Assembly: GCA_001593865.1 (NCBI GenBank)
Contig: LUCB01000003.1
Span: forward strand, 30,781-94,780
Length of the DNA: 64,000 nucleotides
From: Candidatus Bathyarchaeota archaeon B24
GTDB taxonomy: Archaea; Thermoproteota; CALKCG01; B24
Direction of reading: 5' to 3'
The notes beneath the pieces were generated by a model that was given only the letters and a program-made list of their open reading frames with translations, was not told the DNA's origin and searched no databases. This document shows, piece by piece, positions 1 to 17,095 of the stretch; the stretch's first letter is position 1; every line of letters begins with the position of its first letter. Both the position numbers and the translations under genes were made by a program.

Positions 1-356
1 CGGCTCCGGAGGCTACCCCGAGTATCTGCGACGAAACCAAAGGGTTCCTAAACAATCCCTGAAACGATGTTCCCGAGAGCGCTAAGGCTGCTCCTACAAG
101 AGCCGCTGCTATCGCCCTAGGCAACCTTACCTGGATGATCACGATCTCCACCTGCTTGGGTACGTCGTAATGAAACGGCAGAATCTTCGAGATCAATACG
201 GAGAACACGATCTGAGGCGATATCTGGTACCTACCCACGAGAAGCGACAGCAGAAACGACAATATTGGAGCTAGTATTAAAGCCGTAGCTACTAAGGATT
301 TTCGCCCTCTAACCTCTTCAAGAATGTCTTCAAGTACCTGGTATCTCGACACCATA
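1..356 (-). CDS. FecCD/BtuC-family ABC transporter permease, N-terminal part only (gene runs off the left window edge)
   Basis: Absent from the ORF track because it is truncated. My minus-strand translation from the ATG at 356 gives MVSRYQVLEDILEEVRGRKSLVATALILAPILSFLLSLLVGRYQISPQIV...QVRLPRAIAAALVGAALALSGTSFQGLFRNPLVSSQILGVASGA. This carries the classic RLPR..AA.LVGAALALSG..Q.LFRNPL motif of iron-siderophore/cobalamin permeases. The start overlaps the 3' end of the upstream binding-protein gene by 27 nt, suggesting an operon. Confidence 0.8.
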
Positions 357-1823: not shown

Positions 1824-1910
1824 TTATTCACACCTATTTGGTATAACTTATAGAAGTTAATATAAATTTTTCTTTTAAAGTTAAAAAATGGAAGAGATAG
1901 TGGGATGGTG

Positions 1911-2660
1911 CTAAGTTAACGTCTTTGCGAAACGCTTGTAGGCTATGTAATAAAACGCTATAATAGAGAATATTAATACTGCGAAATCTGTAGCCAGCAT
2001 GGTAAGATTATTTACGCCGACGATCGACTGGTAGATCATATCTACGGAGTAAGTTAGGGGGATCAGGTAGGCTATGAACTTCAGCGAAGGCATGAATGCG
2101 TATATCTCATCTATCGGCATGAACACGCCTGCGAAGAAGATCATGAAGAACCTGACGAAGTTCATCGGCCACATGACATCGGCTATGTCCTCGGCTGAGG
2201 CAGAGAACGCTAAGCCCAGAGCACACGCAGAGAGCACGGATAAGGCTACCGCTACCACGAGGAGGGCTGCGTTGAGATTCCAGAAGCCGGCGAACGGAAG
2301 TATTATCGAGAGAACTATAAGGGTTATCGGAAAGCTGAACGTGAATCCTGCAAGACTTTTACCGAGTAGAATTGTCTTCAGCGAGACAGGTGCAAGTAGA
2401 AGCCTATCTATAGTCCCGGTTCTTCTCTCGAGCGGAAGTATAACAGCCTCGACGGTTGTCCCTCCGAAGAACGTCGATAAGGCCGTGACCCCCACGACCC
2501 TATAGTCCTCTGTGACGCATGGCCTCCCTGCAAGAAACGCCCCAAACATAGCGAAGGGCAGAACTACACCGTAAAACAGCGTAGCCGGCTTACTATAGTA
2601 AGTCTTGACATCTTTCTTAGCTATTACAAGTGCCTTTTTCAGGGTTAAAACTATGCTCAT
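1911..2660 (-). CDS. ABC-2 type transporter permease (6 TM)
   Basis: The ORF-track entry 1911..2789 is trimmed to the internal ATG at 2660 (MSIVLTLKKALVIAKKDVKTYYSKPATLFYGVVLPF...). That ATG forms an ATGA overlap with the stop of the upstream ATPase gene. The remainder is hydrophobic and multi-pass, with ABC-2 family character. Confidence 0.75.
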   Translation of the reverse strand: MSIVLTLKKALVIAKKDVKTYYSKPATLFYGVVLPFAMFGAFLAGRPCVTEDYRVVGVTALSTFFGGTTVEAVILPLERRTGTIDRLLLAPVSLKTILLGKSLAGFTFSFPITLIVLSIILPFAGFWNLNAALLVVAVALSVLSACALGLAFSASAEDIADVMWPMNFVRFFMIFFAGVFMPIDEIYAFMPSLKFIAYLIPLTYSVDMIYQSIVGVNNLTMLATDFAVLIFSIIAFYYIAYKRFAKTLT

Positions 2661-3670
2661 CTTCTTCTCCTCCTCCCAGAGGGTCTCACAAGCTCCAGCC
2701 TCTCGACATCGACGGCTGTCAGCCCCGTAAGCTTCACAAATACGTCTTCTAGGCTCGGTGTCAGGGTTCTTACCGAAATAATCTTCCAACCCTTTAAGTC
2801 GGCTAGGCCCGTAAGCTTGGATAATGTCGCGGAGGGATCTCTGGTGTATATTCTAAACTTATCCCCGGACCTCACCACGTCGCCTCCGACGACCTTCAGA
2901 TCCTCAAGACTAGGTATGGGTGAGATGGAGACCTCTATGCTTAACTCACCTCCGATGGTCTGCTTAAGCCTCTCAGGCTTATCAAGGGCTACTAGATGCC
3001 CTCGATTAATTATTCCCACCCTCCCGCAGAGATTATCAGCCTCGTCTATGAAGTGGGTTGTCATAAAGATTGTAACACCCTCCTTATTCAACTTCCTCAG
3101 GACGTTCCTGATGATCCTTGTACTCTGAACGTCTAACCCACTCGTAGGCTCGTCGAGAAAGATTATTTCGGGGTTATGGATTAAAGCGGCCGCTATAGCA
3201 AGCCTCCTTCGCATACCCTTAGAAAAGGTCGCAGCCTTATCGTGTCTCCTCTCGTACAGCCCAAAGACTTCTAAGAGCTCTTTAGCCCTCTCGACGGCCG
3301 CATCCCTTGGAACGTCGTAGAGTTCGGCTATGAACAGGAGGTTCTCCCAAGCCGTCATCTCGACATATATGTTAGACACCTCGGGAACGACCCCCATGAG
3401 CCTCTTAACGTCTAAGGGCCTCTCCATTATATTAACCCCCATTATGAGCGCCTCACCCTCAGTAGGTGTAAGGAGCCCAGTAAGCATCCTGACGGTGGTG
3501 GTCTTCCCGGCTCCATTGGGTCCAAGCAAACCGAAGAACTCGCCTTTAAACACTTTCAAGTTCAACCCGTTAACGGCCGTGAATTTACCATACCGCTTAG
3601 TGAGATTCCGCGCCTCGATAGCCACGTTAACGTCAGAGCGCAAATCTCCGTAAGAAGACAGTTCCTGCAT
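2657..3670 (-). CDS. ABC transporter ATP-binding protein, DrrA/CcmA (ABC-2 partner) type with C-terminal accessory domain
   Basis: Walker A is GLLGPNGAGKTT, the signature is FSKGMRRRLAIAAAL, Walker B is IIFLDEPTSGLD and the H-loop is TTHFIDEA. It is translationally coupled to the ABC-2 permease. Confidence 0.9.
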   Translation of the reverse strand: MQELSSYGDLRSDVNVAIEARNLTKRYGKFTAVNGLNLKVFKGEFFGLLGPNGAGKTTTVRMLTGLLTPTEGEALIMGVNIMERPLDVKRLMGVVPEVSNIYVEMTAWENLLFIAELYDVPRDAAVERAKELLEVFGLYERRHDKAATFSKGMRRRLAIAAALIHNPEIIFLDEPTSGLDVQSTRIIRNVLRKLNKEGVTIFMTTHFIDEADNLCGRVGIINRGHLVALDKPERLKQTIGGELSIEVSISPIPSLEDLKVVGGDVVRSGDKFRIYTRDPSATLSKLTGLADLKGWKIISVRTLTPSLEDVFVKLTGLTAVDVERLELVRPSGRRRRR

Positions 3671-5430: not shown

Positions 5431-8400
5431 GTGAGACCGGTTAAGCTTTCAAGTCATCGGACTCATCCGGCCGTGTCTAAGGCCTTCCTAGTAACTCTTA
5501 TCGCCATGCTACCGCTGGCGTTAGTAGGTTCAATCCTTGTGTCACCAGCATATTCGCAGCTTCAACCTCAAAACCAAGAAGAACTAATGGCCATGTTCAA
5601 GGAAGTCCTAGATAACATTGACCAAAAAGAAATTATGGAGCATGTAGCCTTCTTTTCAAGCTGCGGGTCTAGGGTTACAGGGTATCCCGGCTTCTTCAAG
5701 GCCATGGATTATGTCGTCTCTAAATTTGAAGAATATGGTATTCAGCCCTACGGTGAGGACGGCTACTTCGAATACTTCTACATAACGATTCCCGTCGACT
5801 ATGGAGCTAACATATTGCTTGAGGATGGTGAGGTTCTCCACGGCTATAATCTTTGGCCTAATCTAGTTAACCCGTCGCCTTATAGGAGTCCGCCTGAAGG
5901 CGATTTATTGGTTTATGTCGGTGGAGGAACGTTCGACGACCTTTCTAAGGTAAACGTCACAGACCGATGGGTGTTGATGGATTTCGACAGCAGGTGGTTC
6001 TTCCGTCTGGCTGCGATGTTCGGCGCCAAAGGTGTAATATACATAGGTACTGGGAAAGAATCTAGGATGGAGGCGTTCCAAAAGCTATACAACGTACCGA
6101 TGGCGTTTCCGAAGATCTACCTAAACCCGGAGGACGGTCTTCGTCTGAAGGAGCTATGCGAGAAGCAGGGTGAGGTCAAGATCTGGATAAACTCGTTGAT
6201 GAGGTGGGAGCGCATACGGGTCGCCAACATAGTAGGCTTCATACCAGGCACCGCTAACGCCTCGGAGATAGGGGTCATAACAGCCTATTTAGATTCCTGG
6301 TCTATAGTCCCTGCCCTATCCCCTGGGGCGACCGATGCCCTAGGTATCTCCGCGCTCTTGAACTTCGCGAAGTTTTTGGCTAAGAACCCGCCTAGGCGTT
6401 CGGTCATGCTTGTCGTCCTAGCCGGGCACTGGCAGAGCTTATGGGGTGCTAGGGAATGGGTCGACAGGCACTTCGACATACTTGGGACTTCTGTGAAGTT
6501 CTTCGTAAGCCTAGACCTATCGGCTGGTAGCCAGCAATTAGCCGTATACAACCGTGGCAACGTATACTCATACACCAACCTGCAGACCCTAAACAGCCGA
6601 TACACATCGCTGATAAACCTCCTGTTCAGGACATACTTGCCTGTGCTGAGGGATGACTCTCTCCTCGGAGAACGCTTCGGCGCCTACTTCATAGACGAGA
6701 TACTGCTGACCTATCCTCCTTGGATAAGCGCATGCCCGCCTACGGAGTTCCTAGGGGCAACCTACTTCGACTCTGAGCCTTACGTAGCCGCATGCTACGG
6801 TGGAGGCTTCGCTTTCCATACGACGAACGATGCAAGAATCTATATGAAGGGCCCTGGCGACACTTATGACCGAATCCAGTGGGACAACTACTGGCCTCAA
6901 GTGCAGTTTATATGTACGTCGCTGTACGGTTTATTGAACGAGCCTGTGATAGACCTACCTCAGTCACCTTCGAGGCTGGAGGCTACAGGTGAGTGGGGCT
7001 ACTGCAGCTTGACGATCAAAGTCGTTAGCTACAATATGACGACGGCTTACTGGGACCCCTTCGACGCTGAGAGGCATCCAGAGGCGATAAACGACACGAT
7101 AGTTCATTACCAATCTACCGCGGCACCGGCTATGCAGGCTGTACCTTCATACGCGGCGTTCGGTGCGGCGTTCATCATGGGTGTACTAGATGTCATAGCT
7201 AAGCCTGATGAAAACGGCGTCGTGGTGATTAAGGGTATAAAGCCTTACACGAGCGGGATGGTAGATGCGTTTGTGATAAATAGCACTAACGGTGAGATAG
7301 AGTGGGCCACCGACATAGGCGTGTATTCGCCTTATCAGTCTAAGATCGCCTCTGTGACGACGGTAAATGCATCGTACTTATGTTCAATATTCAGGTGCGC
7401 AAGCATAGTTCTGTTTGCGTTATTCAATCCGTCCGACCTAAGCTCGATGCCGAACGTGGTGCTATACAACAGGCTGGCTCATGGACCATTGATTCAGCAG
7501 AGCTTCTTAGTTTCGATGTACGGTGACGTGATGGCGTTTATCCAACCGGATATACCGGTTGAGATCCTCATCACACGAGGCCGAGCATTCGGCATGGCGG
7601 CGACAGTGGCAACCTCCGGCGCTGCATTAGGCTCGGTAGGTTTCATCGGAGCCTTCCTCGGAGGAGGTGGTGGAGGTAGGTTCCCGATGGGTATTCTAGT
7701 GAACAGCACCGCTGATTTTCCAGAGGGATATGGATATAAAGTAAGCGCAGGAAAAACATTGAGAATACCGTTCACACCCATGCTCTACGCAAGGGACATC
7801 TTCTTGTTAAACGACGGTAGGGTGAAGCTGGCTGCGAAGTACTTTACATTTAACCCAGTCACCATAATGTTCCATGGATTAGCTGAAAAGTATCTAAAAC
7901 TGGCTTTAGAGGCATACAGGCAGAGAGACTATGGGCTGAGCTATGCATCGGCCTACGCAGCTTGGGCTTATGAGCAGGTAGCATACTACTCTATGATGGA
8001 TCTAATATGGCAAGTGATATACACCATAGTGGTGATATCCATCGCTATAATACCGTTCGCATATGCGATGAGCAGGCTCGTCGGGTTCGAAGGTCGTAGG
8101 CTAATAGCTGGTGTGATCATGCTCTTTGGAATCATGCTGATCGTGCTCGACATATTCCATCCAGGTTTCCACTTGGCTAGCAACGCCGGTATGGCGATCT
8201 TGGCATTCGGTACCGCCATAATAATACTGCCGCTACTGGGCTTCGTGATACGTGAAGCCATGATGAGCGCCAAGACTCTGAAGGAAAGAATGATCGGTAT
8301 GCACACCGCCGAGATAAGCCGCTCCGCCATAGCGTTTCAGGCCTTCTCGCTATCGATTCAGAACATGCGTAGACGACGTTTCATGACGGTGCTGACCCTA

Positions 8401-10125
8401 GTCTCCATAGTGATACTGGTCTTCTCGATGGTCACGTTCACCTCGCTTATGGCTGCACCTAGGCCTGTAGAGGACGTACGAACCATATCGGAGGGGGAGA
8501 CACCGCCGCTGTATCAGGGTATACTGATACGTAGGCCTGTGTGGTCGCCTATACCGGAGGAGATGTACTATCAGGTCATCCACCAGTTTAAGGGTACAGG
8601 CATATATTCGGCTAGGGGTTGGCTGTTCCCACCGCCTCCGCAGAGAGGTTTAGGGTTCTTCGCGTTCTCAGATAAGCTGATAACAAAGGTAGGTGCCGTC
8701 TTATTCCTGAGCCCTGAGGAAAAGGAGCTCTCCCACATAGACGAGATACTGCTACCCGGTAGCGACTGGTTTGGACCTGACGACGTTTACACATGTATCA
8801 TAAGTAAAACCATGGCTGATAACCTGACTAAAGAGTTGGGTAGGCCGATAACGATAGGCTCGGTTATACCGTTTCTAGGTATGAATCTTAGGGTTATAGG
8901 GATGTTCGACGGTGACCTTCTATGGTCTGGAAGCGAGGGTTTCGTAGATTTAGATGGTGAACCCATAACGCCGCTTATGCCGTTGATAACGACGGGTGCT
9001 GGTAGGGCTGTGCCGTTCCACTTCACCGGAGACTTGATAATGCTTATGCCTCTTAAGGCCTGCCTTCTACTTAGGGAGCGTGCCTACATAGTGAGCATAG
9101 CGTACAAGCCATATAACACGACTGCTATACGCGAGATCGCCCGTAACTTAGCCCTGAGGATCGCGACTGATGTGTATTACAGCGACGCGCCGGATAGAAT
9201 CGGGATCGTGAGATACCGGCAGTGGTTCACGGTCACAGGGTTTGAGACGTTCATAGCCCCGACGATAATCTGTAGCTTCACGATCTTGAACATGATGCTC
9301 GCTAACGTCCACTACAGAACCAGGGAGATCTCTATCTACATGGCTGTAGGCCTGTCGCCACTCCACGTTTCGATATTGTTCCTCGCAGAATCGCTAGTGT
9401 ACGCCCTGTTAGGGACGGTTCTAGGGTACGTGTACGGCGTGATCGGGTGCTGGATCTTCAACATATTCGGCCTATATCCGCCAGGATTCTACCCCAACTT
9501 CTCGTCGTTCTACGTGTTCATCGTGCTAGGGTCAGCCTCACTAGTAACCATACTCTCGACGGTTTATCCATCGATAAAGGCGTCGAGGCTTGTGACACCT
9601 TCCCTCGAGCGTAAATGGAGGGTTCCTCCGCCTCGTGGAGACGAGTGGGAGATACGGATGCCCTTCGTGTTCTCGGGTAGAGAGATCTACGGGTTCCTAG
9701 CGTTCGTGAACGAGTATTTAGACGCGCATAGGACCGAGGGAGTGGGTGCCTTCGCCACCTTCGGAGATATCGAATGGAAATCTGAGAGGGATCCGCTAGA
9801 GGAGAGGGATACTAAGACGTTGATAGCTAACGTACGTCTTGCGCCGTTCGACGTAGGCATCACCCAGAAGGTGATGGTTATAGCCGAATCGCAGAGGAAA
9901 CGACCGTATTCGCTTACCCTATACCTCCAGAGGACGACTGGGTTGTTAAGCGACTGGGTGAACTCCAACAGACCGTTCATAGACAACATGAGGAAGCAGC
10001 TGTTGATATGGAGAACGTTGAAGCAGACGGATAAGGAGAAGTACATCGACCTAGGGTTAACGTTATTTAGGAAGAAGCTCGGTATTGGTGACGAAGAATT
10101 TAAGAAGTATCTGGATCTAGAATAG
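5431..10125 (+). CDS. Giant (1564 aa) membrane fusion protein. Domain order: anchor, PA/M28-peptidase-like ectodomain with degenerate catalytic motifs, helical stalk, 3-4 TM helices, MacB/FtsX-type permease, ~170-aa cytoplasmic C-terminal domain
   Basis: ITAYLDSW, PGATDALGISALL and LAGHWQSLWGAREW align with M28 motifs AHxDSW, GAxD(D/N)xSG and EExGLxGS, but the metal and catalytic residues are replaced. LSIQNMRRRRFMTVLTLVSIVILVFSM matches MacB TM1. NMMLANVHYRTREISIYMAVGLSPLHVSILFLAESLVYALLGTVLGYVYG is an FtsX domain. The GTG start is uncertain; an alternative GTG lies at 5473. Confidence 0.8.
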   Translation: MRPVKLSSHRTHPAVSKAFLVTLIAMLPLALVGSILVSPAYSQLQPQNQEELMAMFKEVLDNIDQKEIMEHVAFFSSCGSRVTGYPGFFKAMDYVVSKFEEYGIQPYGEDGYFEYFYITIPVDYGANILLEDGEVLHGYNLWPNLVNPSPYRSPPEGDLLVYVGGGTFDDLSKVNVTDRWVLMDFDSRWFFRLAAMFGAKGVIYIGTGKESRMEAFQKLYNVPMAFPKIYLNPEDGLRLKELCEKQGEVKIWINSLMRWERIRVANIVGFIPGTANASEIGVITAYLDSWSIVPALSPGATDALGISALLNFAKFLAKNPPRRSVMLVVLAGHWQSLWGAREWVDRHFDILGTSVKFFVSLDLSAGSQQLAVYNRGNVYSYTNLQTLNSRYTSLINLLFRTYLPVLRDDSLLGERFGAYFIDEILLTYPPWISACPPTEFLGATYFDSEPYVAACYGGGFAFHTTNDARIYMKGPGDTYDRIQWDNYWPQVQFICTSLYGLLNEPVIDLPQSPSRLEATGEWGYCSLTIKVVSYNMTTAYWDPFDAERHPEAINDTIVHYQSTAAPAMQAVPSYAAFGAAFIMGVLDVIAKPDENGVVVIKGIKPYTSGMVDAFVINSTNGEIEWATDIGVYSPYQSKIASVTTVNASYLCSIFRCASIVLFALFNPSDLSSMPNVVLYNRLAHGPLIQQSFLVSMYGDVMAFIQPDIPVEILITRGRAFGMAATVATSGAALGSVGFIGAFLGGGGGGRFPMGILVNSTADFPEGYGYKVSAGKTLRIPFTPMLYARDIFLLNDGRVKLAAKYFTFNPVTIMFHGLAEKYLKLALEAYRQRDYGLSYASAYAAWAYEQVAYYSMMDLIWQVIYTIVVISIAIIPFAYAMSRLVGFEGRRLIAGVIMLFGIMLIVLDIFHPGFHLASNAGMAILAFGTAIIILPLLGFVIREAMMSAKTLKERMIGMHTAEISRSAIAFQAFSLSIQNMRRRRFMTVLTLVSIVILVFSMVTFTSLMAAPRPVEDVRTISEGETPPLYQGILIRRPVWSPIPEEMYYQVIHQFKGTGIYSARGWLFPPPPQRGLGFFAFSDKLITKVGAVLFLSPEEKELSHIDEILLPGSDWFGPDDVYTCIISKTMADNLTKELGRPITIGSVIPFLGMNLRVIGMFDGDLLWSGSEGFVDLDGEPITPLMPLITTGAGRAVPFHFTGDLIMLMPLKACLLLRERAYIVSIAYKPYNTTAIREIARNLALRIATDVYYSDAPDRIGIVRYRQWFTVTGFETFIAPTIICSFTILNMMLANVHYRTREISIYMAVGLSPLHVSILFLAESLVYALLGTVLGYVYGVIGCWIFNIFGLYPPGFYPNFSSFYVFIVLGSASLVTILSTVYPSIKASRLVTPSLERKWRVPPPRGDEWEIRMPFVFSGREIYGFLAFVNEYLDAHRTEGVGAFATFGDIEWKSERDPLEERDTKTLIANVRLAPFDVGITQKVMVIAESQRKRPYSLTLYLQRTTGLLSDWVNSNRPFIDNMRKQLLIWRTLKQTDKEKYIDLGLTLFRKKLGIGDEEFKKYLDLE

Positions 10126-10131
10126 AGGTGA
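10125..10131 (+). promoter_or_regulatory. Shine-Dalgarno-like GAGGTGA, 6 nt upstream of the ATG at 10138 (translational coupling of 5431..10125 and 10138..12099)
   Basis: The sequence tagAGGTGAgtctgtATG complements the conserved archaeal 16S 3' end (..UCACCUCC). Only 12 nt separate the stop and the start, with no TATA or T-tract between them. Confidence 0.5.
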
Positions 10132-10137
10132 GTCTGT

Positions 10138-12099
10138 ATGACCGAGCAGGAGATTCGCCCTGGACTGACTTGGAGGTCAGTGTTAGCTCTGATATTCTCC
10201 CTATTTCTAGTGCAGCCGGTGATGATATACTACTACCTCATAAGCGCTCAATGGTTTCCGCTTCAGGCTTGGATAGTGATCCTGCTATGGTCGGAGATCG
10301 CGCAGTTCCTAGGCTCCCCGTTGACTAAACAAGAACTCTTCATCCTGCTGAGCTTCCAGTGGATGGCCTCCTACTATGCCATGCTATTCAGCATGGGCGG
10401 CCCATACGACTTGGTGAAGAATGCATACATGGCCTACAGCCCTGAAGCACAGGCCCTAGGGATCTCACAGTACGTTCCGTCTTGGTGGGTACCGCCTCAA
10501 AGCGAACTCATAAGATTGACCATGGAACGCACGTTCCTCTACCTCGACCCGGTGTGGCTTATCCCGTTGGGGATAGCGGTTTTAGCATTGATATTTAACA
10601 TGGTCGCCGATATATCCATGGGTTATTTCACCTACTCGCTCTACGTGAAAGTGGAGAAGCTTCAGTTCCCCGCCGCTAGGGCAGCCGCCGAGACCGTCTT
10701 AACGCTGGCTGAGAGAGACCCACTACATATGAGGATACTGATGCTATCTATTCTCTTCGGTGCGCTCTACGACTTATTCGTGAGCTTCCTACCATACCTA
10801 CTCGGACCTTACCTAGCCAGTGGAGGAGCCGCGATCTACACGGTTCTTCTACCGATCGCTCAAACCTTCGACATGACACCTGTGATAGCGCACTTCCTAC
10901 CAGGGTTCGGCTTCGCCTTCACCTTGAACTTGATGACGTCTCCGGCAGGCTACATATCAGGGTTCATACTCCCCATCGACATATGCCTAGCCCAGTTCCT
11001 AGGAGCCTTCAGCTACTACTGTATAGGAACGCATCTGATAACGAGGTTTAACCTCTGGCCGGCTGAAAGTCCATATGATATTTCGTGGCCGCTGGCTATA
11101 CTTGTCCAAAGGTCTCAGCTATACTTCTACACGAGCCTCACCATAGGTATGGCCTTGGCAGCCACGTTCCTTCCGATGCTGATAAGACCTAAATCGTTCA
11201 TCAGGGCCTTCAGTTCGCTGGCTAAAGCGAAAGGTGCAGAGGGAGAGGGTCCTCCGCTATACTTGCTACTCGCGGCTTTCCTAGGGGCGTGCACTGGAGG
11301 CATGCTACTAGTATACTTCCTGACAGGGTTCCCGCTTTGGATTCTAGCAATATTCATGATCGGCGGTTCGTTCTTCGCGTCGTTTATGGGTGCAAGCGCC
11401 GCAGGTGTTACCACTACCGGATTTAACGTGCCTATGCTTCCGCAGCTTATGATATATCTGACCGGTTGGCAGGATAAGCGCATATGGTTTGCTCCGACAA
11501 ACATATACGCCGGAGGCCCAGGCATAGCCCAGGCGTTTATGCAGGCGGACATACTGAAGGCTAGAAAGTCCGAATATATCAAGACCTATATACTGATATT
11601 CTTCGTAGGCGTTCTCGTTACCATACTCTTCGTGTCATATTTATGGACTCTATCGCCTATACCGTCTGGAGCGTATCCTGCTACGATGGTCTACTGGCCG
11701 GTCGACGCCATGAACTGGGCTAGATGGCAGGTCTGGATGTGGTCCGGCTACCTGTTCAGGAAAGACCTTCTGATCGGAGGATTCGCTATAGGCTCGGTGA
11801 TATACCTGATAACGGATCTTATATTCCATAAACCATACTTCCTAGTGGCTTTCATCAGCGGAGCATATGGTAGCTGGTTTGGATATACCATGCAGCTTCC
11901 ATACACGCTGGCCCAGCTGATAGGGTCGATAATCGGTAACGTGGTCGTAGCCAGAGTTCTAAGTAGGAGGACAAAGATACCTTACGGCGTATTCGCCTAC
12001 AGGTTCTTCATGGGTACCACGATCGGATGGGGTCTGATGGAGAGCATAAGAGCGTTACTGGTGCTAGTCAGCCGAGCGATGTGGCTACTGCCATACTAG
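10138..12099 (+). CDS. Polytopic membrane protein (653 aa, ~14-16 TM); distant relative of 12215..14254 and 15101..17095, possibly OPT-superfamily-like
   Basis: Highly hydrophobic throughout. The motif YVKVEKLQFPAARAAAETVL sits at the same relative position as WLDIERVPFPYVIATHELI and WIDVEKVPFTHVMAAHEII in the two downstream paralogs. Confidence 0.75.
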   Translation: MTEQEIRPGLTWRSVLALIFSLFLVQPVMIYYYLISAQWFPLQAWIVILLWSEIAQFLGSPLTKQELFILLSFQWMASYYAMLFSMGGPYDLVKNAYMAYSPEAQALGISQYVPSWWVPPQSELIRLTMERTFLYLDPVWLIPLGIAVLALIFNMVADISMGYFTYSLYVKVEKLQFPAARAAAETVLTLAERDPLHMRILMLSILFGALYDLFVSFLPYLLGPYLASGGAAIYTVLLPIAQTFDMTPVIAHFLPGFGFAFTLNLMTSPAGYISGFILPIDICLAQFLGAFSYYCIGTHLITRFNLWPAESPYDISWPLAILVQRSQLYFYTSLTIGMALAATFLPMLIRPKSFIRAFSSLAKAKGAEGEGPPLYLLLAAFLGACTGGMLLVYFLTGFPLWILAIFMIGGSFFASFMGASAAGVTTTGFNVPMLPQLMIYLTGWQDKRIWFAPTNIYAGGPGIAQAFMQADILKARKSEYIKTYILIFFVGVLVTILFVSYLWTLSPIPSGAYPATMVYWPVDAMNWARWQVWMWSGYLFRKDLLIGGFAIGSVIYLITDLIFHKPYFLVAFISGAYGSWFGYTMQLPYTLAQLIGSIIGNVVVARVLSRRTKIPYGVFAYRFFMGTTIGWGLMESIRALLVLVSRAMWLLPY

Positions 12100-12122
12100 A
12101 GACGTTAGGGAAAACGCTCCGA

Positions 12123-12143
12123 TTTTTTAATCCTCCTTTTCTC
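12123..12143 (+). terminator. Oligo-T tracts (T6, T4) after 10138..12099
   Basis: gaTTTTTTaatcctccTTTTctc lies 24 nt after the stop. Archaeal transcription terminates at T-runs. Confidence 0.4.
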
Positions 12144-12176
12144 GATGAGGGGAGCCTTATAGAGTCGATGGCAAAG

Positions 12177-12184
12177 TTTTTAAA
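12177..12184 (+). promoter_or_regulatory. TATA-box-like TTTTTAAA ~30 nt upstream of the ATG at 12215
   Basis: The sequence is aaagTTTTTAAAcgc, at archaeal TATA spacing (~25-30 nt before a short-leader start). Confidence 0.4.
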
Positions 12185-12214
12185 CGCTCTAAGAGACTAA
12201 CGAGTGGTGTAAAA

Positions 12215-14254
12215 ATGAGCGAGGAGGTTAAGGAGTTTAGGATAAGTCCATCGCTGCTCGTTCCCTTGATAATCCTAACAGCTGTACTATCTTTCATAGG
12301 GACAGTTGAGATCGCTTTAAACGGCTCTGTCGGCGGCGCCTTCATGTGCCGCTACGCGTGGGGTACGGTCTCCAAAACCATGGGCATACCGATAATGTCC
12401 CTACTAGTAATACTACTAGCCTTCCCGTTCAAATATCTGAGAGGTCGATTGTCACCCTCTATGCTCGTCTCCCTCTACATCGTCGGTGCTGCTGTGGCGA
12501 TGTACGGTATCGGACACTACGAGACGTTCGCCTGCTGGCCAGTAGGATTCGCCAGAACGCTCCTGTATACTGAGCCGGAGTTCCTACCGGTCGCGGAGAG
12601 CTGGTGGTGGATGCCACCCCATGACGTGGTAGAGCTTATAGTCGCAGGCGGAGTAGCAACAGACTGGGGTGCATGGTCGGGAGCCATACTTTTCTGGTCG
12701 CTATATCTGCTGGTCTTTTATCTTTTCGGCTCTAGCGTGATGCTGCTCTTCAGACGGAGATGGCTGGACATAGAGAGGGTTCCGTTCCCATACGTCATAG
12801 CAACCCACGAGCTCATAAGAAGGGTCTCAGGAGAACGCGGATTAGAGAAAACTATGAAGTGGTTCATAATCGGTTTCGTCATAGCACTACTGTTTGAGAT
12901 ACAGGTTACATGCACATATGTATGGCCGTGGTGGCCAGACCTGCTAGCGTGGAGAGGCACGGCTGTGGATGAAACAAGCCCACAGGGATGCGTATGTATC
13001 TATCCTAACGACCCCATTGAAAGTACTCTCGTATGGTGGCCAGGCTATACGAAGAACATCCTACCGTTTCTAGTGTACTATCTAGCACCTCTTGATGTAT
13101 TGCTTTCAGCATGGGTGTTCTTCTTGATAGTGGTAATACTTGCTCAGATAGCCTACATGATGGGTTACTACACAGGGGTCTTCGACATGGGTAGCGCCTG
13201 TAGGATCCTAGGATGGGCGGGCTCCGATATATCGCCTCTCTTCGGTCCGCCATACTACTGGATGTGGGTGACTATGATAGGTGGTACATTCGCCGTGACT
13301 GTGATGATGATGTTTCATGCTAGAAGCTACCTCGCCGAGACCATAAGGCTCGCCATGCGCGGAGGCAGGTCTCCAGAGGAGGCAAACGAACCATTCACCT
13401 ACAGACAAATCTACATATTCATCATACTATCTGCGATAATACTACTAGCCTTCTGCTTTTCAGCAGGACTATCCATCGGAACATCTCTAGCAGTGTTGAT
13501 TGTAGGTGCGTTCATAAACACCGTGGCGGCCGCGTATGTTTTAGGCTTAAGCGGCTGTGGCTACATACATGAGAGGGCTTTATGGCCCAGCTGGCCTCTG
13601 AGGTTCATATGGCCCACAGCTCCTCAAAACTACAGCGCAGACTGGATAATGAGCCACGTCTTCATGCATACAGGGCTTAACCACGTGACGCACGGGGTAC
13701 AGACAGGGGCCTACCTTACGATCCAGAACCTTAAGATGGGTGGCTTAGCTAAGATAAACCTCCGAGATGTGTTCATACTGACTACTATAGCCAGCATCAT
13801 AGCGATATTCGTCGGGAACGCTACCAGGGTTTGGATAATAAACCTTCTAGGTGTTGCGCGTGTACCGATATGGGGTAGCTGCTCGGTTACTCAATGGTGT
13901 GACAACGACTTTGAAAGATATGCACAAGCTCCACCTGCTGAGTTCCAGTTTACCGCAGGTGCTGCAGGTTTCTTGATAACGATGATACTGTTCCTTCTGA
14001 GAGCTAGGTTTGTATGGTGGCCTCTACACCCCGTCGGCTTCATCCTGGCTACCGGTGTAGCGCCTAACTGGATGAGGGAGTGGAACGCCATGCTGGGTGC
14101 TTGGATAGCTAAGTTCCTGACCCTACGCGTAGGCGGTAGCAGAGCCTACGAAGAATACGGCGTACCCTTCGTAAGCGGAGGGATAGCAGGATACGCACTG
14201 TCAAACCTGATAGCCTACCTAATAGGCACGGTGAGGTTCTTCATACCGTTCTAA
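12215..14254 (+). CDS. Polytopic membrane protein (679 aa), clear paralog of 15101..17095
   Basis: Long collinear similarity to the paralog. DWGAWSGAILFWSLYLLVFYLFGSSVMLLFRRRWLDIERVPFPYVIATHELIRR aligns with NWGAWTIPILYWSLLHIVFYLFMASIVTIFRRRWIDVEKVPFTHVMAAHEIIRY. The C-termini LTLRVGGSRAYEEYGVPFVSG...VRFFIPF and LTLKVGGTRAYEDYGIPVAVG...VRFFVPF also align. Confidence 0.8.
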   Translation: MSEEVKEFRISPSLLVPLIILTAVLSFIGTVEIALNGSVGGAFMCRYAWGTVSKTMGIPIMSLLVILLAFPFKYLRGRLSPSMLVSLYIVGAAVAMYGIGHYETFACWPVGFARTLLYTEPEFLPVAESWWWMPPHDVVELIVAGGVATDWGAWSGAILFWSLYLLVFYLFGSSVMLLFRRRWLDIERVPFPYVIATHELIRRVSGERGLEKTMKWFIIGFVIALLFEIQVTCTYVWPWWPDLLAWRGTAVDETSPQGCVCIYPNDPIESTLVWWPGYTKNILPFLVYYLAPLDVLLSAWVFFLIVVILAQIAYMMGYYTGVFDMGSACRILGWAGSDISPLFGPPYYWMWVTMIGGTFAVTVMMMFHARSYLAETIRLAMRGGRSPEEANEPFTYRQIYIFIILSAIILLAFCFSAGLSIGTSLAVLIVGAFINTVAAAYVLGLSGCGYIHERALWPSWPLRFIWPTAPQNYSADWIMSHVFMHTGLNHVTHGVQTGAYLTIQNLKMGGLAKINLRDVFILTTIASIIAIFVGNATRVWIINLLGVARVPIWGSCSVTQWCDNDFERYAQAPPAEFQFTAGAAGFLITMILFLLRARFVWWPLHPVGFILATGVAPNWMREWNAMLGAWIAKFLTLRVGGSRAYEEYGVPFVSGGIAGYALSNLIAYLIGTVRFFIPF

Positions 14255-14265
14255 GACATCTCCAA

Positions 14266-14293
14266 TTTTTTCAAGGAATACCCTCTTATTTTT
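14266..14293 (+). terminator. Oligo-T tracts (T6, T5) after 12215..14254
   Basis: ccaaTTTTTTcaagg...cttaTTTTTctg begins 12 nt after the stop codon. Confidence 0.4.
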
Positions 14294-14304
14294 CTGACCG
14301 GAGT

Positions 14305-14316
14305 GTTTAAGTTTAT
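14305..14316 (+). promoter_or_regulatory. TATA-box-like GTTTAAGTTTAT ~25 nt upstream of the ATG at 14341
   Basis: An AT-rich element at canonical archaeal TATA distance from the start, consistent with a leaderless or short-leader mRNA. Confidence 0.35.
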
Positions 14317-14340
14317 CCTCCTCAAGATTTATCATGTCCG

Positions 14341-14934
14341 ATGATCAAGTGGATAGTCTCCCTAGGTCTCTCGTTGCTCGCTCTCGGCTCTCTCCTATTC
14401 ACGGTTTCTCAAACCCTGGGAACTCGCTCCCAGTCGATAACGCCTGAGGTATTATTGTATGAGGATAGGTTTGAGATGAAGCGTGAAGAAGTCAGGGTCT
14501 ACAACTTCACGTTTCCCCAGAACGTGACGGTCGTCACCATCGTAGGGTCCAACATGTGCGTAGGCCTTAGAATATACAACGAGACGTTTCAAGAGTTTAT
14601 CGAAGAGATGGGTGGATTAAGCATGGTGAATTACACCGGCATCGCTGAGCTTCTGGGGAATCTGCCTAAACCAATCTCATGGTCCCACAGCGAGTATTAC
14701 AGACATTTGATACCAAACAATAGAACCATGACCTACTACTTCATACTCTACAACTACCCCGCATGTTATCCTAAAAGCGTCCACTTGGAAATAGGATACA
14801 CCACCGGTAAGATAGAAATGCCCGAGGAAGAACCCATAACGTTTAGAAACCAGCTACTATCGACGGGTTTAGCCTCGATAGCCTTAGGGCTCCTGTTAGC
14901 ACTATACGGGTTCATAAAGGAGCCTAAAATATAA
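14341..14934 (+). CDS. Bitopic membrane protein (197 aa), paralog of 4747..5280
   Basis: N-terminal TM is IVSLGLSLLALGSLLF and C-terminal TM is LLSTGLASIALGLLLALYGFI-KEPK. It has several N-x-S/T sequons (NFT, NVT, NET, NYT, NRT). The similarity blocks are listed under 4747..5280. Confidence 0.6.
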   Translation: MIKWIVSLGLSLLALGSLLFTVSQTLGTRSQSITPEVLLYEDRFEMKREEVRVYNFTFPQNVTVVTIVGSNMCVGLRIYNETFQEFIEEMGGLSMVNYTGIAELLGNLPKPISWSHSEYYRHLIPNNRTMTYYFILYNYPACYPKSVHLEIGYTTGKIEMPEEEPITFRNQLLSTGLASIALGLLLALYGFIKEPKI

Positions 14935-15072
14935 GTTAGATTAACGGGTGGATCTGATACAGTAGAAGCAGTCACCCTTCAAGTAGGAAAAAAGGTAAGA
15001 GGATGAACCATCTCTTACAGTCTGGTCGAAATCTGGTTACGATGAATGATGGAAAAAATTAAAAGCCCATGG

Positions 15073-15082
15073 AATATAAATA
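15073..15082 (+). promoter_or_regulatory. TATA-box-like AATATAAATA ~24 nt upstream of the ATG at 15101 (probably a leaderless mRNA)
   Basis: The sequence is ggAATATAAATAcatcttttgtgatgaaatATG. Confidence 0.4.
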
Positions 15083-15100
15083 CATCTTTTGTGATGAAAT

Positions 15101-17095
15101 ATGTCTGTTGAAAGAGTTGAGAAGGTTTCTTTACCTTTGGTAGTGGTTTTCAGCGTCTTCCTCGCCTTCATAAGCATAGTTTGGATAAGTCTACTTCCAT
15201 CCGGCCTTTGGCATTTCTACAACTTAGGTATAGTGGCATGCCCCCTACAGCTCACATCGGCGCCGTTTATAACGATTTTACTTCTGATCGCCATGAACAA
15301 AGCTGGACTTTTAAAGAAGCTTAAAGTCTCTACGATCGTCTATTTCTATATAGCCGCTGTTTCCGTGGCCTGGTATACGGATTATGCCGCTACTTCTGAA
15401 TGGTACGCTGGGGTATGGCATAATCGGAGATACTACCCAGACCTATCCCTACGGTATGTACCATGGTACTTAGCGCCTCCAACCGAAGAGGTTGAACGGC
15501 TCCTCGTAGGAGGTCCCATAAACTGGGGAGCATGGACTATCCCGATACTGTATTGGTCGCTGCTTCACATAGTCTTCTACTTATTCATGGCATCTATCGT
15601 AACGATATTCAGGAGAAGATGGATCGATGTCGAGAAGGTGCCGTTTACACACGTCATGGCCGCCCATGAAATCATAAGGTACACGTTTGAAGAAAAAGGG
15701 GAGACAAAGGCTAAACTGATTAAACCGTTCAGCATAGGAATACTACTTGGACTTATCGTGCAGATACCTATATACATGACGGTCATGTTTCCATGGTTCC
15801 CGGACATTTACGGTTGGAGAGTAAATACGTGCGGACATGGGGGATACTGGATTCCGCCGGAATCACCTCTTTCGTCGATAGTGGGGTTAAGCATGATCCA
15901 GAAGCATCCGGTATTCATAGCTATAGGGTATCTAGTACCCCTATCAATGCTCCTAAGCACCTGGGTGTTTCACCTAGTCTACATCATAGTGGTGCAGATA
16001 GCGTTCACCCTTGGATACTATACAGGTCTAGACACTATCGGAGGGTGCGGTAGAGCCTGGTGTGGGACCATAACGCCGAACTTCGGTGAACCGTTTAAGT
16101 TTATGTCGTTAAGCTATGTAGGAGGCTCAACAGCCCTAACGCTGATCTATCTTCTGCTTAACTGGAGATATGTGAGAGATACGATATCTGCTGCATTAGG
16201 CAGAGGTCCTCTAAAGCGGTACGAGGATGAAGAGCCGATGTCTTACAGATACGCGTATGCTCTGTTGGTGGTCTCCATAATATTGATACTAATCGTCCTA
16301 TCAGGCTGGGGTATGGGAGTCGCTTCGTCATTGATCTTGATATTTACTGTCTTTATCTTCTGGATCGCTAATACCCGTATCTGGGGTTTAGCAGGTTGCA
16401 CCCTCCAAGGGGCTGAGCACGGTAATGCCTTTTATCGGCTGTTCATGTGGCCTCAGGCCCCGCAGCCTCCGACGATGGAGTTTATGGCGTCTGCGTATCT
16501 TTCAGAGTGGCTCGTAGACGTGCCTAAATCGTTTGGTGGAGCTGCACTATCTTTCGCCGCTGGCTATAAAATGGCAAATCTAACAAATATTAGAAGCCGC
16601 GATGTGTTTAAGGCTGTTTTAATAGCGGGAATACTCGGATATCCCGTTGTCATGGCTACATACGTCTACATGTGTCACACCTTTGGTCTCACGCATCTAC
16701 CGGTTTGGGCTGAGAGTACGTATGACTCGTTAATCGATAGATGCGGGAACCCTGACAACTGGAATGTGAGGCCTGGGGAGGAACCGTGGTGGCCTAACTT
16801 CTTAGCCGGGTTTATAATAGTGGCTTTGTTGAGCTGGCTACATGCAAGGTTCATGTGGTTCCCGCTGGAGCCTATAGGGTTTATACTAGGCACCTCCTAT
16901 ATGTCTAGTCTGTGGGGTATCTGGTTTCCGTTTCTGATATCTTGGGTCTTGAAAACTTTAACCCTGAAAGTCGGGGGGACGAGGGCTTACGAAGACTACG
17001 GGATACCGGTGGCCGTCGGCTTCATAACAGGCTACATGGTAGCTGTGCTGGTCGGAGGGGCTATAGGCATAGTGAGGTTCTTCGTACCGTTCTAA
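15101..17095 (+). CDS. Polytopic membrane protein (664 aa), paralog of 12215..14254
   Basis: See 12215..14254. It has its own TATA-like element and a downstream T-tract. Confidence 0.8.
   Translation: MSVERVEKVSLPLVVVFSVFLAFISIVWISLLPSGLWHFYNLGIVACPLQLTSAPFITILLLIAMNKAGLLKKLKVSTIVYFYIAAVSVAWYTDYAATSEWYAGVWHNRRYYPDLSLRYVPWYLAPPTEEVERLLVGGPINWGAWTIPILYWSLLHIVFYLFMASIVTIFRRRWIDVEKVPFTHVMAAHEIIRYTFEEKGETKAKLIKPFSIGILLGLIVQIPIYMTVMFPWFPDIYGWRVNTCGHGGYWIPPESPLSSIVGLSMIQKHPVFIAIGYLVPLSMLLSTWVFHLVYIIVVQIAFTLGYYTGLDTIGGCGRAWCGTITPNFGEPFKFMSLSYVGGSTALTLIYLLLNWRYVRDTISAALGRGPLKRYEDEEPMSYRYAYALLVVSIILILIVLSGWGMGVASSLILIFTVFIFWIANTRIWGLAGCTLQGAEHGNAFYRLFMWPQAPQPPTMEFMASAYLSEWLVDVPKSFGGAALSFAAGYKMANLTNIRSRDVFKAVLIAGILGYPVVMATYVYMCHTFGLTHLPVWAESTYDSLIDRCGNPDNWNVRPGEEPWWPNFLAGFIIVALLSWLHARFMWFPLEPIGFILGTSYMSSLWGIWFPFLISWVLKTLTLKVGGTRAYEDYGIPVAVGFITGYMVAVLVGGAIGIVRFFVPF

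What the first reader, a model, noticed from the sequence alone, without database searches (positions are those of the whole stretch)
9595..10122. Conserved cytoplasmic tail after the FtsX domain in all three giant proteins, a possible replacement or dock for the missing ATPase
Directly after the last FtsX helix, each giant protein carries 130-170 residues with the same order of elements.
- A basic linker: TPSLERKW, LLGRPPKRN, TPSLIRKIK.
- A short strand ending in P(F/V): EIRMPFVF, SLPIRATPF, SISMPVRV.
- An amphipathic helix: EIYGFLAFVNEYL, EMLYNYLKDNF, PFFTAFITDRL.
- Several strands, then a final Trp-containing helix: LLIWRTL, GYPSWRE, LKDWERY.

The equivalents lie at about nt 25200-25600 in 22583..26191 and about nt 26207-26690 (minus strand) in 26207..29383. 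In canonical MacB/FtsX systems the cytoplasmic side engages an NBD, and here no NBD gene accompanies any of the three. The tail is therefore the obvious candidate for a coupling or regulatory module, and I cannot assign it to a named family.
Basis: inference. Interest (0 to 1): 0.65.

Follow-up and report, generated by a model that had tools for sequence, protein, structure and literature searches.

The report
New cytoplasmic domain on orphan FtsX giants
The flagged stretch encodes a real, conserved and so far unnamed cytoplasmic end-domain of a giant archaeal membrane protein (surface peptidase plus FtsX-type transporter module); it defines a large uncharacterised family, but nothing yet shows that it replaces or docks the missing ATPase motor.

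Summary
Window 9595..10122 encodes residues 1389-1564 of a 1564-aa protein, G1. G1 has an M28 ecto-peptidase, extra TM helices, an FtsX/MacB-type 4-TM module and this tail.

**What the tail is**
- Its first 8 residues (TPSLERKW) are the canonical end of any FtsX domain, the minor coupling helix CH2.
- The next ~150 residues are a separate alpha+beta domain. AlphaFold2 gives pLDDT 94 and the order b1-a1-b2-b3-b4-b5-a2-a3.
- It has no Pfam, NCBIfam or PDB sequence match and no significant Foldseek match. The weak matches are all helix-grip/SRPBCC-like (TM <=0.41).

**How widespread it is**
- A profile finds it in about 1,600 protein clusters, almost always at the extreme C-terminus of ~1,500-aa M28-FtsX proteins of archaea and bacteria.
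- These genes sit next to OPT-like (DUF6785) permease genes.

**The other two giants**
- G3 carries a divergent copy (hhalign E 1.5e-5 to 6e-11).
- G2 is only marginally similar (0 of 200 shuffles reach its score; alignment-guided model pLDDT 74).

**The ATPase question**
- No MacB-type ATPase lies in the 64-kb window or in the archaeal relatives examined.
- In 3-4 of 11 related loci, all bacterial, a MacB-type ATPase with its own small FtsX sits in the same cluster.
- The two coupling helices are the most conserved segments of the family.
- Replacement versus dock therefore stays open. I rate this a new variant of a known kind, of moderate interest.

The parts
5431..10125 (+). G1: 1564-aa giant membrane protein. 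Order: signal/anchor, ecto-domain with M28 peptidase, 3 TM helices, FtsX/MacB-type 4-TM module with its own ecto-domain, cytoplasmic tail.
   Evidence: ORF; Pfam M28 266-379 and FtsX 1279-1386; full-length homologue P0125 at 54% identity over 1528 aa; hydropathy.
9313..9381 (+). Major coupling helix CH1 (YRTREISIYMAVGLSPLHVSILF) in the TM2-TM3 cytoplasmic loop of G1.
   Evidence: Canonical FtsX motif. It is the most conserved segment of the family, 2.93 bits per column in 79 full-length members. CH1 definition from PMC8277102.
9595..9618 (+). TPSLERKW: the canonical FtsX C-terminal motif (minor coupling helix CH2). This is where ordinary FtsX proteins end.
   Evidence: Comparison with the C-termini of tail-less FtsX proteins; 2.71 bits per column.
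9631..10080 (+). New alpha+beta tail domain (G1 residues 1401-1550): b1-a1-b2-b3-b4-b5-a2-a3. Conserved motifs are LPF, LAP(F/Y)DxGxxQ, SGxxxxW and NRxFxDxxRKQ(F/L)LxWRxL.
   Evidence: AlphaFold2 pLDDT 94; invariant columns; 1597 clusters found; no Pfam, NCBIfam or PDB match.
10081..10122 (+). Short non-conserved C-terminal extension of G1.
   Evidence: Occupancy 0.18 and 0.26 bits in the family alignment.
26210..26677 (-). G3 tail (residues 903-1058): CH2 motif TPSLIRKI plus a divergent copy of the domain, lacking the RKQFLxWR helix motif.
   Evidence: hhalign against the G1 family: E 1.5e-5 without and 6e-11 with the bridging homologue P0023. Orthologues P0023 and L025_1001 keep the tail.
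25202..25642 (+). G2 tail candidate (residues 874-1020): possible very divergent copy. It is followed by a coiled coil (25706..26017) and a C-terminal zinc ribbon (26102..26188).
   Evidence: Weak profile signal over b1-a1, 0 of 200 shuffles; alignment-guided model pLDDT 74 with the same element order; 66-81% identical orthologues in Bathyarchaeia MAGs and metagenomes; Pfam CdvA-like and Zn_Ribbon below cutoff.
10138..12099 (+). 653-aa polytopic membrane protein 12 nt downstream of G1. It is a distant OPT-like/DUF6785 homologue and the conserved genetic partner of G1-type genes.
   Evidence: hhalign against DUF6785/6784 proteins: prob 97.9%, E 5e-13. The same gene lies directly downstream in L002, L003, L018, L019/20, L021, L022, L023, L024 and L025.
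12215..17095 (+). Two DUF6785/DUF6784 (OPT-like) permease genes (12215..14254 and 15101..17095) flanking a 197-aa bitopic protein gene (14341..14934). Same cluster as G1.
   Evidence: Pfam; DUF6785 genes also flank G1-type genes in L001, L003, L019, L021 and L024.

Best explanation
**Shown**
- The region encodes the cytoplasmic C-terminal end of G1.
- It consists of the normal last element of an FtsX domain (minor coupling helix CH2, TPSLERKW) followed, after a conserved Pro-rich linker of about 9 residues, by a ~150-residue alpha+beta domain.
- That domain is the signature of a large, unannotated subfamily of FtsX/MacB-type (type VII ABC-like) proteins.
- Members carry an M28 peptidase outside the cell, fused or encoded adjacently.
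- Their genes are coupled to OPT-like peptide permease genes.

**Inferred**
- The system digests protein outside the cell and takes up the peptides.
- The tail is not an ATPase. Being tethered to CH2, it must sit on the cytoplasmic face of the FtsX helix bundle, at or beside the site where MacB/FtsE nucleotide-binding domains dock.
- I favour the reading that, in these orphan giants, the tail is the in-cis ligand of the two strongly conserved coupling helices.
- In that role it would be a foot or cap that fixes or gates the FtsX dimer, and so the ecto-peptidase, without a dedicated ATPase.
- The beta-sheet core is shared by G1, G3 and perhaps G2.
- The helical a2-a3 part (RKQFLxWR...) is specific to the G1 type, the type that always has an OPT-like neighbour, and may contact that partner.
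For: - Family size and strict C-terminal position.
- Confident fold.
- No known-family match.
- None of 168 tail-bearing proteins has a fused NBD, whereas the NBD-fused MacBs in the same hit list (P0042, P0061) lack the tail.
- No MacB-type ATPase and no extra FtsX in the 64-kb window.
- None within +/-10 kb in the archaeal G1-type loci L018, L024 and L025/26.
- None near 11 G2-type loci or four G3-type loci.
- CH1 and CH2 are the most conserved segments (2.93 and 2.71 bits). This needs a binding partner, and the tail is present in 95-97% of members.
- Cytoplasmic composition.
- An OPT-like gene lies immediately downstream in 9 of 11 G1-type loci and an OPT/DUF6785 gene is adjacent in the other two (L001, L024 also upstream).
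- Precedent for orphan FtsX permeases: the ADOP family, TIGR03434, which G1 and G3 hit weakly (family description from my own knowledge).
Against: - No structure of the tail together with the TM domain could be computed, so contact between the tail and CH1/CH2 is pure inference.
- Every characterised FtsX-family protein works with an ABC ATPase (established knowledge), and conserved CH1/CH2 is what an ATPase partner would predict.
- In L002, L021 and L023 (probably L022) a MacB-type ATPase is in the same cluster. In L002 and L021 its small FtsX has no ecto-domain, which looks complementary to a giant that has ecto-domains but no motor.
- The rest of the source genome could not be searched for an unlinked ATPase.
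- G2 membership is weak.
Confidence: 0.35

Rival explanations
1. The giant still uses a MacB/FtsE-type ATPase supplied in trans. The ATPase could come from an ecto-domain-less small FtsX plus ATPase pair forming a LolC/LolE/LolD-like hetero-complex. The tail would then be an accessory docking or regulatory domain beside the NBD.
For: - CH1 and CH2 keep the canonical motifs and are the most conserved parts.
- Orthologous ATPases (62-72% identical) with a small FtsX lie in the giant's cluster in L002, L021 and L023, in three different gene orders. L022 breaks off just where they would follow.
- The mini-FtsX of L002 and L021 has 4 TM helices and almost no ecto-loop. It could supply a motor but no working end, while the giant is the reverse.
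Against: - The ATPase never occurs without its own FtsX gene, so it has a partner already.
- It is absent from 7 of 11 G1-type loci, from all archaeal loci and from the whole 64-kb window.
- No fused NBD in 168 members.
- No evidence that the tail touches an NBD.
Confidence: 0.3
2. The tail, above all its G1-type-specific a2-a3 helices, is the cytoplasmic docking site for the OPT-like permease encoded next door. It would hold the ecto-peptidase and the peptide importer together. The FtsX module would be mainly a scaffold.
For: - An OPT-like gene follows the tail-coding end at 12 nt in the window. It overlaps or lies within about 40 nt in most loci.
- It is homologous to DUF6785/OPT (Pfam OPT hit in L024).
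- G3- and G2-type genes have no OPT-like neighbour and lack the RKQFLxWR motif.
Against: - Correlation only, across three protein types.
- The beta-core of the domain persists in G3-type proteins without that neighbour.
- No interaction test was possible.
Confidence: 0.15
3. The tail is a small-ligand sensor with a helix-grip (SRPBCC/START/PYL-like) pocket. It would report a cytoplasmic metabolite, for example imported peptide products, through the FtsX helices to the ecto-peptidase.
For: Nearly all weak Foldseek matches of the G1 model are helix-grip proteins: PYL/RCAR, Bet v 1/PR-10, START/StARkin, CoxG and Rieske-oxygenase catalytic domains. The G2 model gives the same kinds of match. FtsX modules are known mechanotransmitters (PMC8277102).
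Against: - No match reaches E 1e-3.
- TM-scores are 0.2-0.41 with rmsd 5-15 A.
- The domain has five strands, not seven.
- No SRPBCC Pfam family is hit by any of 63 tails.
- The G2 model is not independent.
- No pocket analysis was possible without coordinates.
Confidence: 0.1
4. For G2 only: the resemblance is chance plus shared position after TM4. G2's cytoplasmic region would then be an unrelated domain leading into its coiled coil and zinc ribbon.
For: - The profile of the G1 family does not find G2.
- hhalign global mode fails.
- G2 family against G3 family gives E 0.5.
- G2 shares only 9-20% identity with the tails.
- G2 lacks the CH2 motif.
Against: - The local hhalign score exceeds 200 of 200 shuffles and aligns the positionally equivalent b1-a1.
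- The G3/G2 BLASTP alignment runs on from FtsX about 100 residues into the tail.
- Tail-only G3/G2 gives E 0.013 at equivalent elements.
- The alignment-guided model is compatible at pLDDT 74.
Confidence: 0.1

Closest known systems
MacB / LolCDE / FtsEX permeases (type VII ABC transporters, Pfam FtsX PF02687)
   Same: - 4-TM module with an ecto-domain between TM1 and TM2.
- Canonical CH1 (ER.REI...G) and CH2 motifs.
- As in FtsEX with EnvC, PcsB or CwlO, an extracytoplasmic hydrolase is attached to the module; here an M28 peptidase, fused or adjacent.
   Different: - No fused or adjacent ATPase in the window or in archaeal relatives.
- About 900 extra N-terminal residues with three extra TM helices.
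- A ~150-residue folded domain follows CH2, where known members simply end.
- Genetic partners are OPT-like permeases, not membrane-fusion or outer-membrane proteins.
ADOP family (TIGR03434, 'Acidobacterial duplicated orphan permease')
   Same: FtsX-domain proteins encoded without a neighbouring ABC ATPase gene (my own knowledge of the NCBIfam description). G1 and G3 hit the model weakly through the FtsX domain.
   Different: - ADOP proteins have two FtsX modules in one chain and no M28 domain.
- Scores here (27-33 bits) are far below the family cutoff of 622 bits.
- No tail domain is known in ADOP.
- ADOP is also functionally uncharacterised, so it offers no mechanism.
SRPBCC / Bet v 1 / START helix-grip domains
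   Same: Beta-alpha, then an antiparallel sheet, then a long C-terminal helix. This is the only recurring theme among the weak structural matches.
   Different: - Five strands instead of seven.
- TM-scores <=0.41.
- No sequence-profile match.
- Extra helices a3 and a4.
- I do not treat it as a member.
Small FtsX + MacB-type ATPase (+ PqqD-like + unknown protein X) module in bacterial relatives
   Same: It lies in the same cluster as tail-bearing giants in L002, L021 and L023. It would supply the motor that the giant lacks.
   Different: It is not present in the window or in archaeal loci. It is itself uncharacterised, and its link to the tail is untested.

Membership tests
FtsX/MacB-type permease (PF02687; type VII ABC transporter TMD) | FtsX domain (TM2-TM4) above the Pfam gathering score | tested here: met
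   G1 52.2, G2 39.1 and G3 37.1 bits against a cutoff of 25.5.
FtsX/MacB-type permease (PF02687; type VII ABC transporter TMD) | TM1, large ecto-domain, then TM2-4, with both ends of the module cytoplasmic | tested here: met
   Hydropathy segments and weak MacB_PCD hits. Sequon and charge distribution place the tail inside the cell.
FtsX/MacB-type permease (PF02687; type VII ABC transporter TMD) | Coupling helices CH1 (TM2-TM3 loop) and CH2 (after TM4) | tested here: met
   The motifs are present in G1 and G3, and CH1 is present in G2. They are the most conserved segments in the family. CH2 is degenerate in G2.
FtsX/MacB-type permease (PF02687; type VII ABC transporter TMD) | Partner ABC ATPase, fused or encoded in the same operon | tested here: not met
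   No fused NBD. The only ABC_tran in the window is DrrA-like with its own ABC-2 permease. The ATPase is present in 3-4 bacterial relatives only. The rest of the genome was not searchable.
ABC nucleotide-binding domain (would make the tail a literal ATPase replacement) | Walker A/B, ABC signature, RecA-like fold | tested here: not met
   No motifs in the tail. The fold is b-a-b4-a3. No ABC_tran hit in 63 tails.
SRPBCC / Bet v 1-like superfamily | Helix-grip fold with significant structural or profile similarity | tested here: not met
   Best Foldseek E is 7e-3 with TM <=0.41. There are no SRPBCC Pfam hits and no PDB sequence hits.
New tail-domain family (G1 type) | Profile match over b1-a3 with the LPF, LAP(F/Y)DxGxxQ and RKQ(F/L)LxWR motifs, at the extreme C-terminus after FtsX | tested here: met
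   G1 is the seed. P0001-P0022 and 150 listed representatives score 150-185 bits.
New tail-domain family: G3 | Significant profile-profile similarity to the G1-type tail | tested here: met
   hhalign E 1.5e-5 (G3 + L025 orthologue) and 6e-11 (with P0023). The a2 motif is absent.
New tail-domain family: G2 | Significant profile-profile similarity to the G1-type tail | tested here: inconclusive
   hhalign E 0.003, prob 10%. 0 of 200 shuffles reach the score. The biased model gives pLDDT 74.
ADOP (TIGR03434) | Duplicated FtsX modules, score above 622 bits | tested here: not met
   A single FtsX module, scoring 27-33.5 bits.

The most novel reading that the evidence does not exclude
These giants are type VII 'ABC' mechanotransmitters that have dispensed with the ABC. 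The tail has taken the place of the nucleotide-binding domain on the coupling helices. It would transmit a cytoplasmic signal (ligand binding in a helix-grip-like domain, or the state of the neighbouring OPT-like importer) through the FtsX stalk helices to switch the ecto-peptidase. This would be the first NBD-independent way of driving or gating an FtsX module, conserved from Bathyarchaeia to Planctomycetota.
Probability: 0.2. Interest if true: 0.8.

Novelty: new variant of a known kind. Interest (0 to 1): 0.55.

Why it matters
- FtsX/MacB modules are understood only as ATP-driven mechanotransmitters. A family of roughly 1,400-1,600 protein clusters carries an extra, confidently folded and unnamed cytoplasmic domain exactly where the motor docks, usually with no motor gene nearby. 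That either reveals a new input device for this fold or a new way of recruiting the motor.
- The family also joins a surface M28 peptidase to OPT-like permeases. This suggests a widespread, undescribed protein-scavenging machine in Bathyarchaeia, Brockarchaeota, Planctomycetota and other uncultured groups credited with degrading detrital protein (context: PMC9534799 and PMC9123169, listed but not read in detail).
- At the least, the domain deserves a family entry. Current annotations ('M28 family peptidase', 'ABC transporter permease') miss it.

Tried and rejected
1. Tail-only word-indexed search found a single close homologue. Searching with the whole C-terminal module was needed to find the family.
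2. Pairwise BLASTP of the three tails is barely or not significant. The G1-family HMM alone does not detect G2 and barely detects G3.
3. Pfam and NCBIfam on the giants, and Pfam on 63 tails at E<=1, gave no consistent family. A PDB sequence-profile search gave nothing. Foldseek against PDB gave nothing significant.
I used a family-guided alignment instead and flag the bias.
5. The genome and metagenome scans for G2 relatives returned only 66-81% identical orthologues, so no deeper G2 profile could be built.
6. The 200-aa and 158-aa genes after the giant in L019/L020 were checked as possible mini-FtsX and ATPase. They are prepilin-like proteins.
7. The window's 197-aa gene (14341..14934) was checked as a possible mini-FtsX. 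It is not one.
8. The DrrA-like ATPase at 2657..3670 was considered as the missing motor and rejected. It overlaps its own ABC-2 permease gene and is not MacB-type.
9. The first shuffle test timed out and was rerun smaller.
10. Literature searches for DUF6785/DUF6784 and for orphan FtsX proteins found nothing on this family.
11. Not attempted: covariation between tail and CH1 columns (79 sequences is too few), and the viral structure library (irrelevant).
Full report
**What is at the coordinates**

The window holds three very long ORFs with a single FtsX domain each:
- G1, 5431..10125 (+), 1564 aa. Pfam M28 at 266-379, FtsX at 1279-1386.
- G2, 22583..26191 (+), 1202 aa. FtsX at 752-871, then a CdvA-like coiled coil and a zinc ribbon, both below Pfam cutoffs.
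- G3, 26207..29383 (-), 1058 aa. A CarboxypepD_reg-like N-terminus below cutoff, FtsX at 792-899.

The finding's interval 9595..10122 is exactly G1 residues 1389-1564, the part after the last FtsX helix.

**The tail of G1 is a real domain and defines a large family**

- A tail-only word-indexed search found one close relative. A search with the whole C-terminal module found about 20 proteins that align to the end of the tail, including bacterial ones.
- Their tails align with strong motifs: TPSLERKW, LPF, LAP(F/Y)DxGxxQ, SGxxxxW, NRxFxDxxRKQ(F/L)LxWRxL, EKxxY.
- A 16-sequence profile scored against 1.84 billion representative proteins found 1597 at E<=1e-3, 1414 at E<=1e-10 and 812 at E<=1e-30.
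- In 159 full-length domain matches the domain ends within 16 residues of the protein's C-terminus in 156. Complete proteins cluster at 1450-1650 aa, like G1, with some up to 3053 aa.
- Long members have the same M28...FtsX...tail order.
- Source names are only 'M28 family peptidase' or 'ABC transporter permease', from Thermoproteota, Brockarchaeota, Bathyarchaeota, Phycisphaerae and Hinthialibacteria.
- No Pfam or NCBIfam model covers the tail, and none is shared by 63 tails scanned at E<=1. A PDB sequence-profile search found nothing.

**Fold**

- With a 63-sequence alignment AlphaFold2 gives pLDDT 94 and pTM 0.88.
- Elements in tail numbering: b1 17-26, a1 28-44, b2 53-66, b3 71-82, b4 89-100, b5 105-115, a2 118-141, a3 144-162, a4 166-172.
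- Foldseek against the PDB has no match at E<=1e-3. The best (E 7e-3 and weaker, TM 0.2-0.41) are almost all helix-grip proteins: PYL/RCAR, PR-10/Bet v 1, START/StARkin, CoxG and Rieske-oxygenase catalytic domains.
- I take that as a topological resemblance, not membership.

**The 'basic linker' is the end of the FtsX domain**

- Ordinary, tail-less FtsX proteins in the hit list end ...YPAxKASRLDPIxALRYE; 78 of 98 do so.
- G1 reads YPSIKASRLVTPSLERKW and G3 reads VRAAVMATPSLIRKI at the same place.
- This is the minor coupling helix CH2. Together with CH1 in the TM2-TM3 loop, it contacts the nucleotide-binding domain in MacB (PMC8277102).
- The new domain therefore starts about ten residues later. 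The TPSL similarity between G1 and G3 is not evidence for a shared new domain.

**G3 and G2**

G3:
- It is a full-length homologue of P0023 (E 6e-62).
- It is also a full-length homologue of a 1001-aa protein next to a G1-type gene in an archaeal contig (L025; 30% identity end to end).
- The tails of G3 plus the L025 orthologue match the G1-family alignment at hhalign prob 80%, E 1.5e-5 over 101 columns. With P0023 the values are prob 97%, E 6e-11 over 128 columns.
- G3-type tails lack the RKQFLxWR motif.

G2:
- It has 66-81% identical orthologues in Bathyarchaeia MAGs and hot-spring metagenomes. Tail, coiled coil and zinc ribbon are all conserved in them.
- No more distant relatives were found.
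- Its family profile matches the G1 family only locally (b1-a1, E 0.003, prob 10%). That score (22.1) exceeds all 200 column shuffles (mean 13.0, sd 2.6, max 21.5).
- An unbiased model was not possible. A model guided by the family alignment has pLDDT 74, pTM 0.67 and the same element order, and it gives the same kind of weak Foldseek matches. It is not independent evidence.
- I call G2 'probably a remote member, unproven'.

**Location**

- Hydropathy gives G1 an N-terminal anchor, an ecto-region, three TM helices, a cytoplasmic loop and the four FtsX TM helices. This leaves the tail inside the cell.
- The tails have no N-x-S/T sequons and 16-22% K+R. The ecto-domains have 0.8-3 sequons per 100 residues and 7-12% K+R.

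**The ATPase question**

- In the whole window only G1-G3 have FtsX domains.
- The only ABC ATPase is 2657..3670 (-). It is DrrA-like and overlaps an ABC-2 permease gene, next to a binding-protein gene. It is not a MacB-type partner.
- None of 168 tail-bearing proteins has a fused NBD.
- I read 11 distinct G1-type gene contexts: the window, L001, L002, L003, L018, L019/20, L021, L022, L023, L024 and L025/26.
- No ATPase lies within +/-10 kb in the archaeal ones or in L001, L003 and L019/20.
- In L002 (Phycisphaerae), L021 and L023 the cluster also holds a MacB/LolD-type ATPase (62-72% identical among the three) next to a small FtsX permease. In L002 and L021 that permease is a ~200-aa, 4-TM protein with almost no ecto-loop.
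- L021 and L023 add a PqqD-like protein and a conserved unknown protein X. L022 has X and then the contig ends.
- The gene order differs among these loci, which argues for a functional link. However, the ATPase always has its own FtsX.

**What is most conserved**

In an alignment of 79 full-length members, information per column was as follows:

| Segment | Bits per column |
|---|---|
| CH1 | 2.93 |
| CH2 | 2.71 |
| TM helices | 2.2-2.65 |
| Tail a2-a3 | 2.08 |
| Tail beta-part | 1.87 |
| M28 region | 1.80 |

- Tail occupancy is 95-97%.
- The two NBD-contact elements therefore have a conserved binding partner. The data do not say whether it is an NBD in trans or the tail in cis.

**Gene neighbourhood**

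- The gene 12 nt downstream of G1 (10138..12099, 653 aa, no Pfam hit) is a polytopic membrane protein. Relatives follow the giant gene in nine of the eleven contexts.
- A profile comparison shows it is a distant homologue of DUF6785/DUF6784, OPT-like permeases (prob 97.9%, E 5e-13). In L024 Pfam calls it OPT outright.
- Two further DUF6785/6784 genes follow in the window. Such genes flank the giant in five other loci.
- Where the M28 domain is not fused, an M28 gene sits just upstream (L001, L003).
- G3- and G2-type genes have no such neighbours.
- The coherent reading is a surface aminopeptidase coupled to peptide uptake.

**Mechanism**

- Shown: a conserved, cytoplasmic, non-ATPase domain tethered by a short conserved linker to CH2 of an FtsX module, in proteins that mostly lack a nearby ATPase gene.
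- Inferred, favoured at 0.35: the tail is the in-cis partner of CH1/CH2, a cap that fixes or gates the FtsX dimer and hence the ecto-peptidase. A G1-type-specific helical part may contact the OPT-like neighbour.
- Nearly as likely, at 0.30: an ATPase acts in trans, perhaps through a small-FtsX/ATPase pair in a LolCDE-like hetero-complex, with the tail as an accessory dock or regulator.
- Less likely: a pure docking site for the OPT-like permease (0.15), or a helix-grip-type ligand sensor (0.10).
- These are not all mutually exclusive.

**Comparison with the known, and novelty**

- The TM module is a bona fide FtsX/MacB-type module. It fails the 'adjacent ATPase' feature in this genome region.
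- Orphan FtsX permeases have a precedent in the uncharacterised ADOP family (TIGR03434). G1 and G3 are not members (27-33 bits against a cutoff of 622).
- No paper in the searchable library mentions DUF6785/6784 or this architecture.
- I rate it a new variant of a known kind. The domain and the M28-FtsX-tail plus OPT-like cluster are undescribed.
- The central idea, replacement of or a dock for the ATPase, remains untested and faces a concrete rival from the bacterial clusters.
- Interest 0.55.

Noticed in passing
window 5431..17095; loci L001, L003, L018, L019, L021-L025: Conserved gene cluster: M28 peptidase (fused or adjacent), FtsX giant with tail, one to three OPT-like/DUF6785-DUF6784 permease genes. 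The 653-aa gene at 10138..12099 has no Pfam hit but is a distant DUF6785/OPT homologue (hhalign prob 97.9%). This looks like an undescribed protein-scavenging module.
   Followed up: partly
L002:5252-6637; L021:5274-7885; L023:13133-16644; L022:17234-19188: Accessory module in bacterial relatives: unknown protein X, a PqqD-like protein, a small FtsX (about 200 aa with 4 TM and no ecto-domain in L002 and L021; 430 aa in L023) and a MacB/LolD-type ATPase. It sits in the giant's cluster in three different gene orders. An ecto-domain-less FtsX is itself unusual.
   Followed up: partly
window 25706..26188 (G2 residues 1042-1202): After its tail, G2 has a long cytoplasmic coiled coil (weak CdvA-like and SMC-related hits, below cutoffs) and a C-terminal CxxC...CxxC zinc ribbon. 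All of this is conserved at 66-81% identity in Bathyarchaeia orthologues. A membrane FtsX protein ending in a zinc ribbon is odd and unexplained.
   Followed up: partly
L025:4156-7161 (-) and L025:10001-14578 (+); window G3 and G1: A G3-type and a G1-type giant lie within a few kb of each other in a second archaeal lineage, as in the window. Paralogous FtsX proteins can form heterodimers (LolC/LolE), so they might work together.
   Followed up: no
window 330..3670 (-): A separate ABC system: a DrrA-like ATPase (2657..3670) overlapping an ABC-2 permease gene (1911..2789), next to a 497-aa protein with two kinds of periplasmic binding-protein domains (330..1823). It is the only ABC ATPase in the window and is unlikely to serve the giants.
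   Followed up: partly
P0019 (849 aa, 64.7-kb ENA contig): The one clear exception to 'tail at the extreme C-terminus'. About 390 further residues of polytopic membrane protein follow the tail, after a low-complexity N-terminus. This could be a gene fusion, a frameshift or an assembly artefact.
   Followed up: no
window 14341..14934 (+): A 197-aa protein with one TM helix at each end and several N-x-S/T sequons, sitting between the two DUF6785 genes. It has no family match and is not a mini-FtsX.
   Followed up: partly
window 9687..10046 (-): A 119-aa ORF on the opposite strand lies inside the tail-coding region. Given the strong protein-level conservation of the + strand frame, it is most likely spurious.
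   Followed up: no
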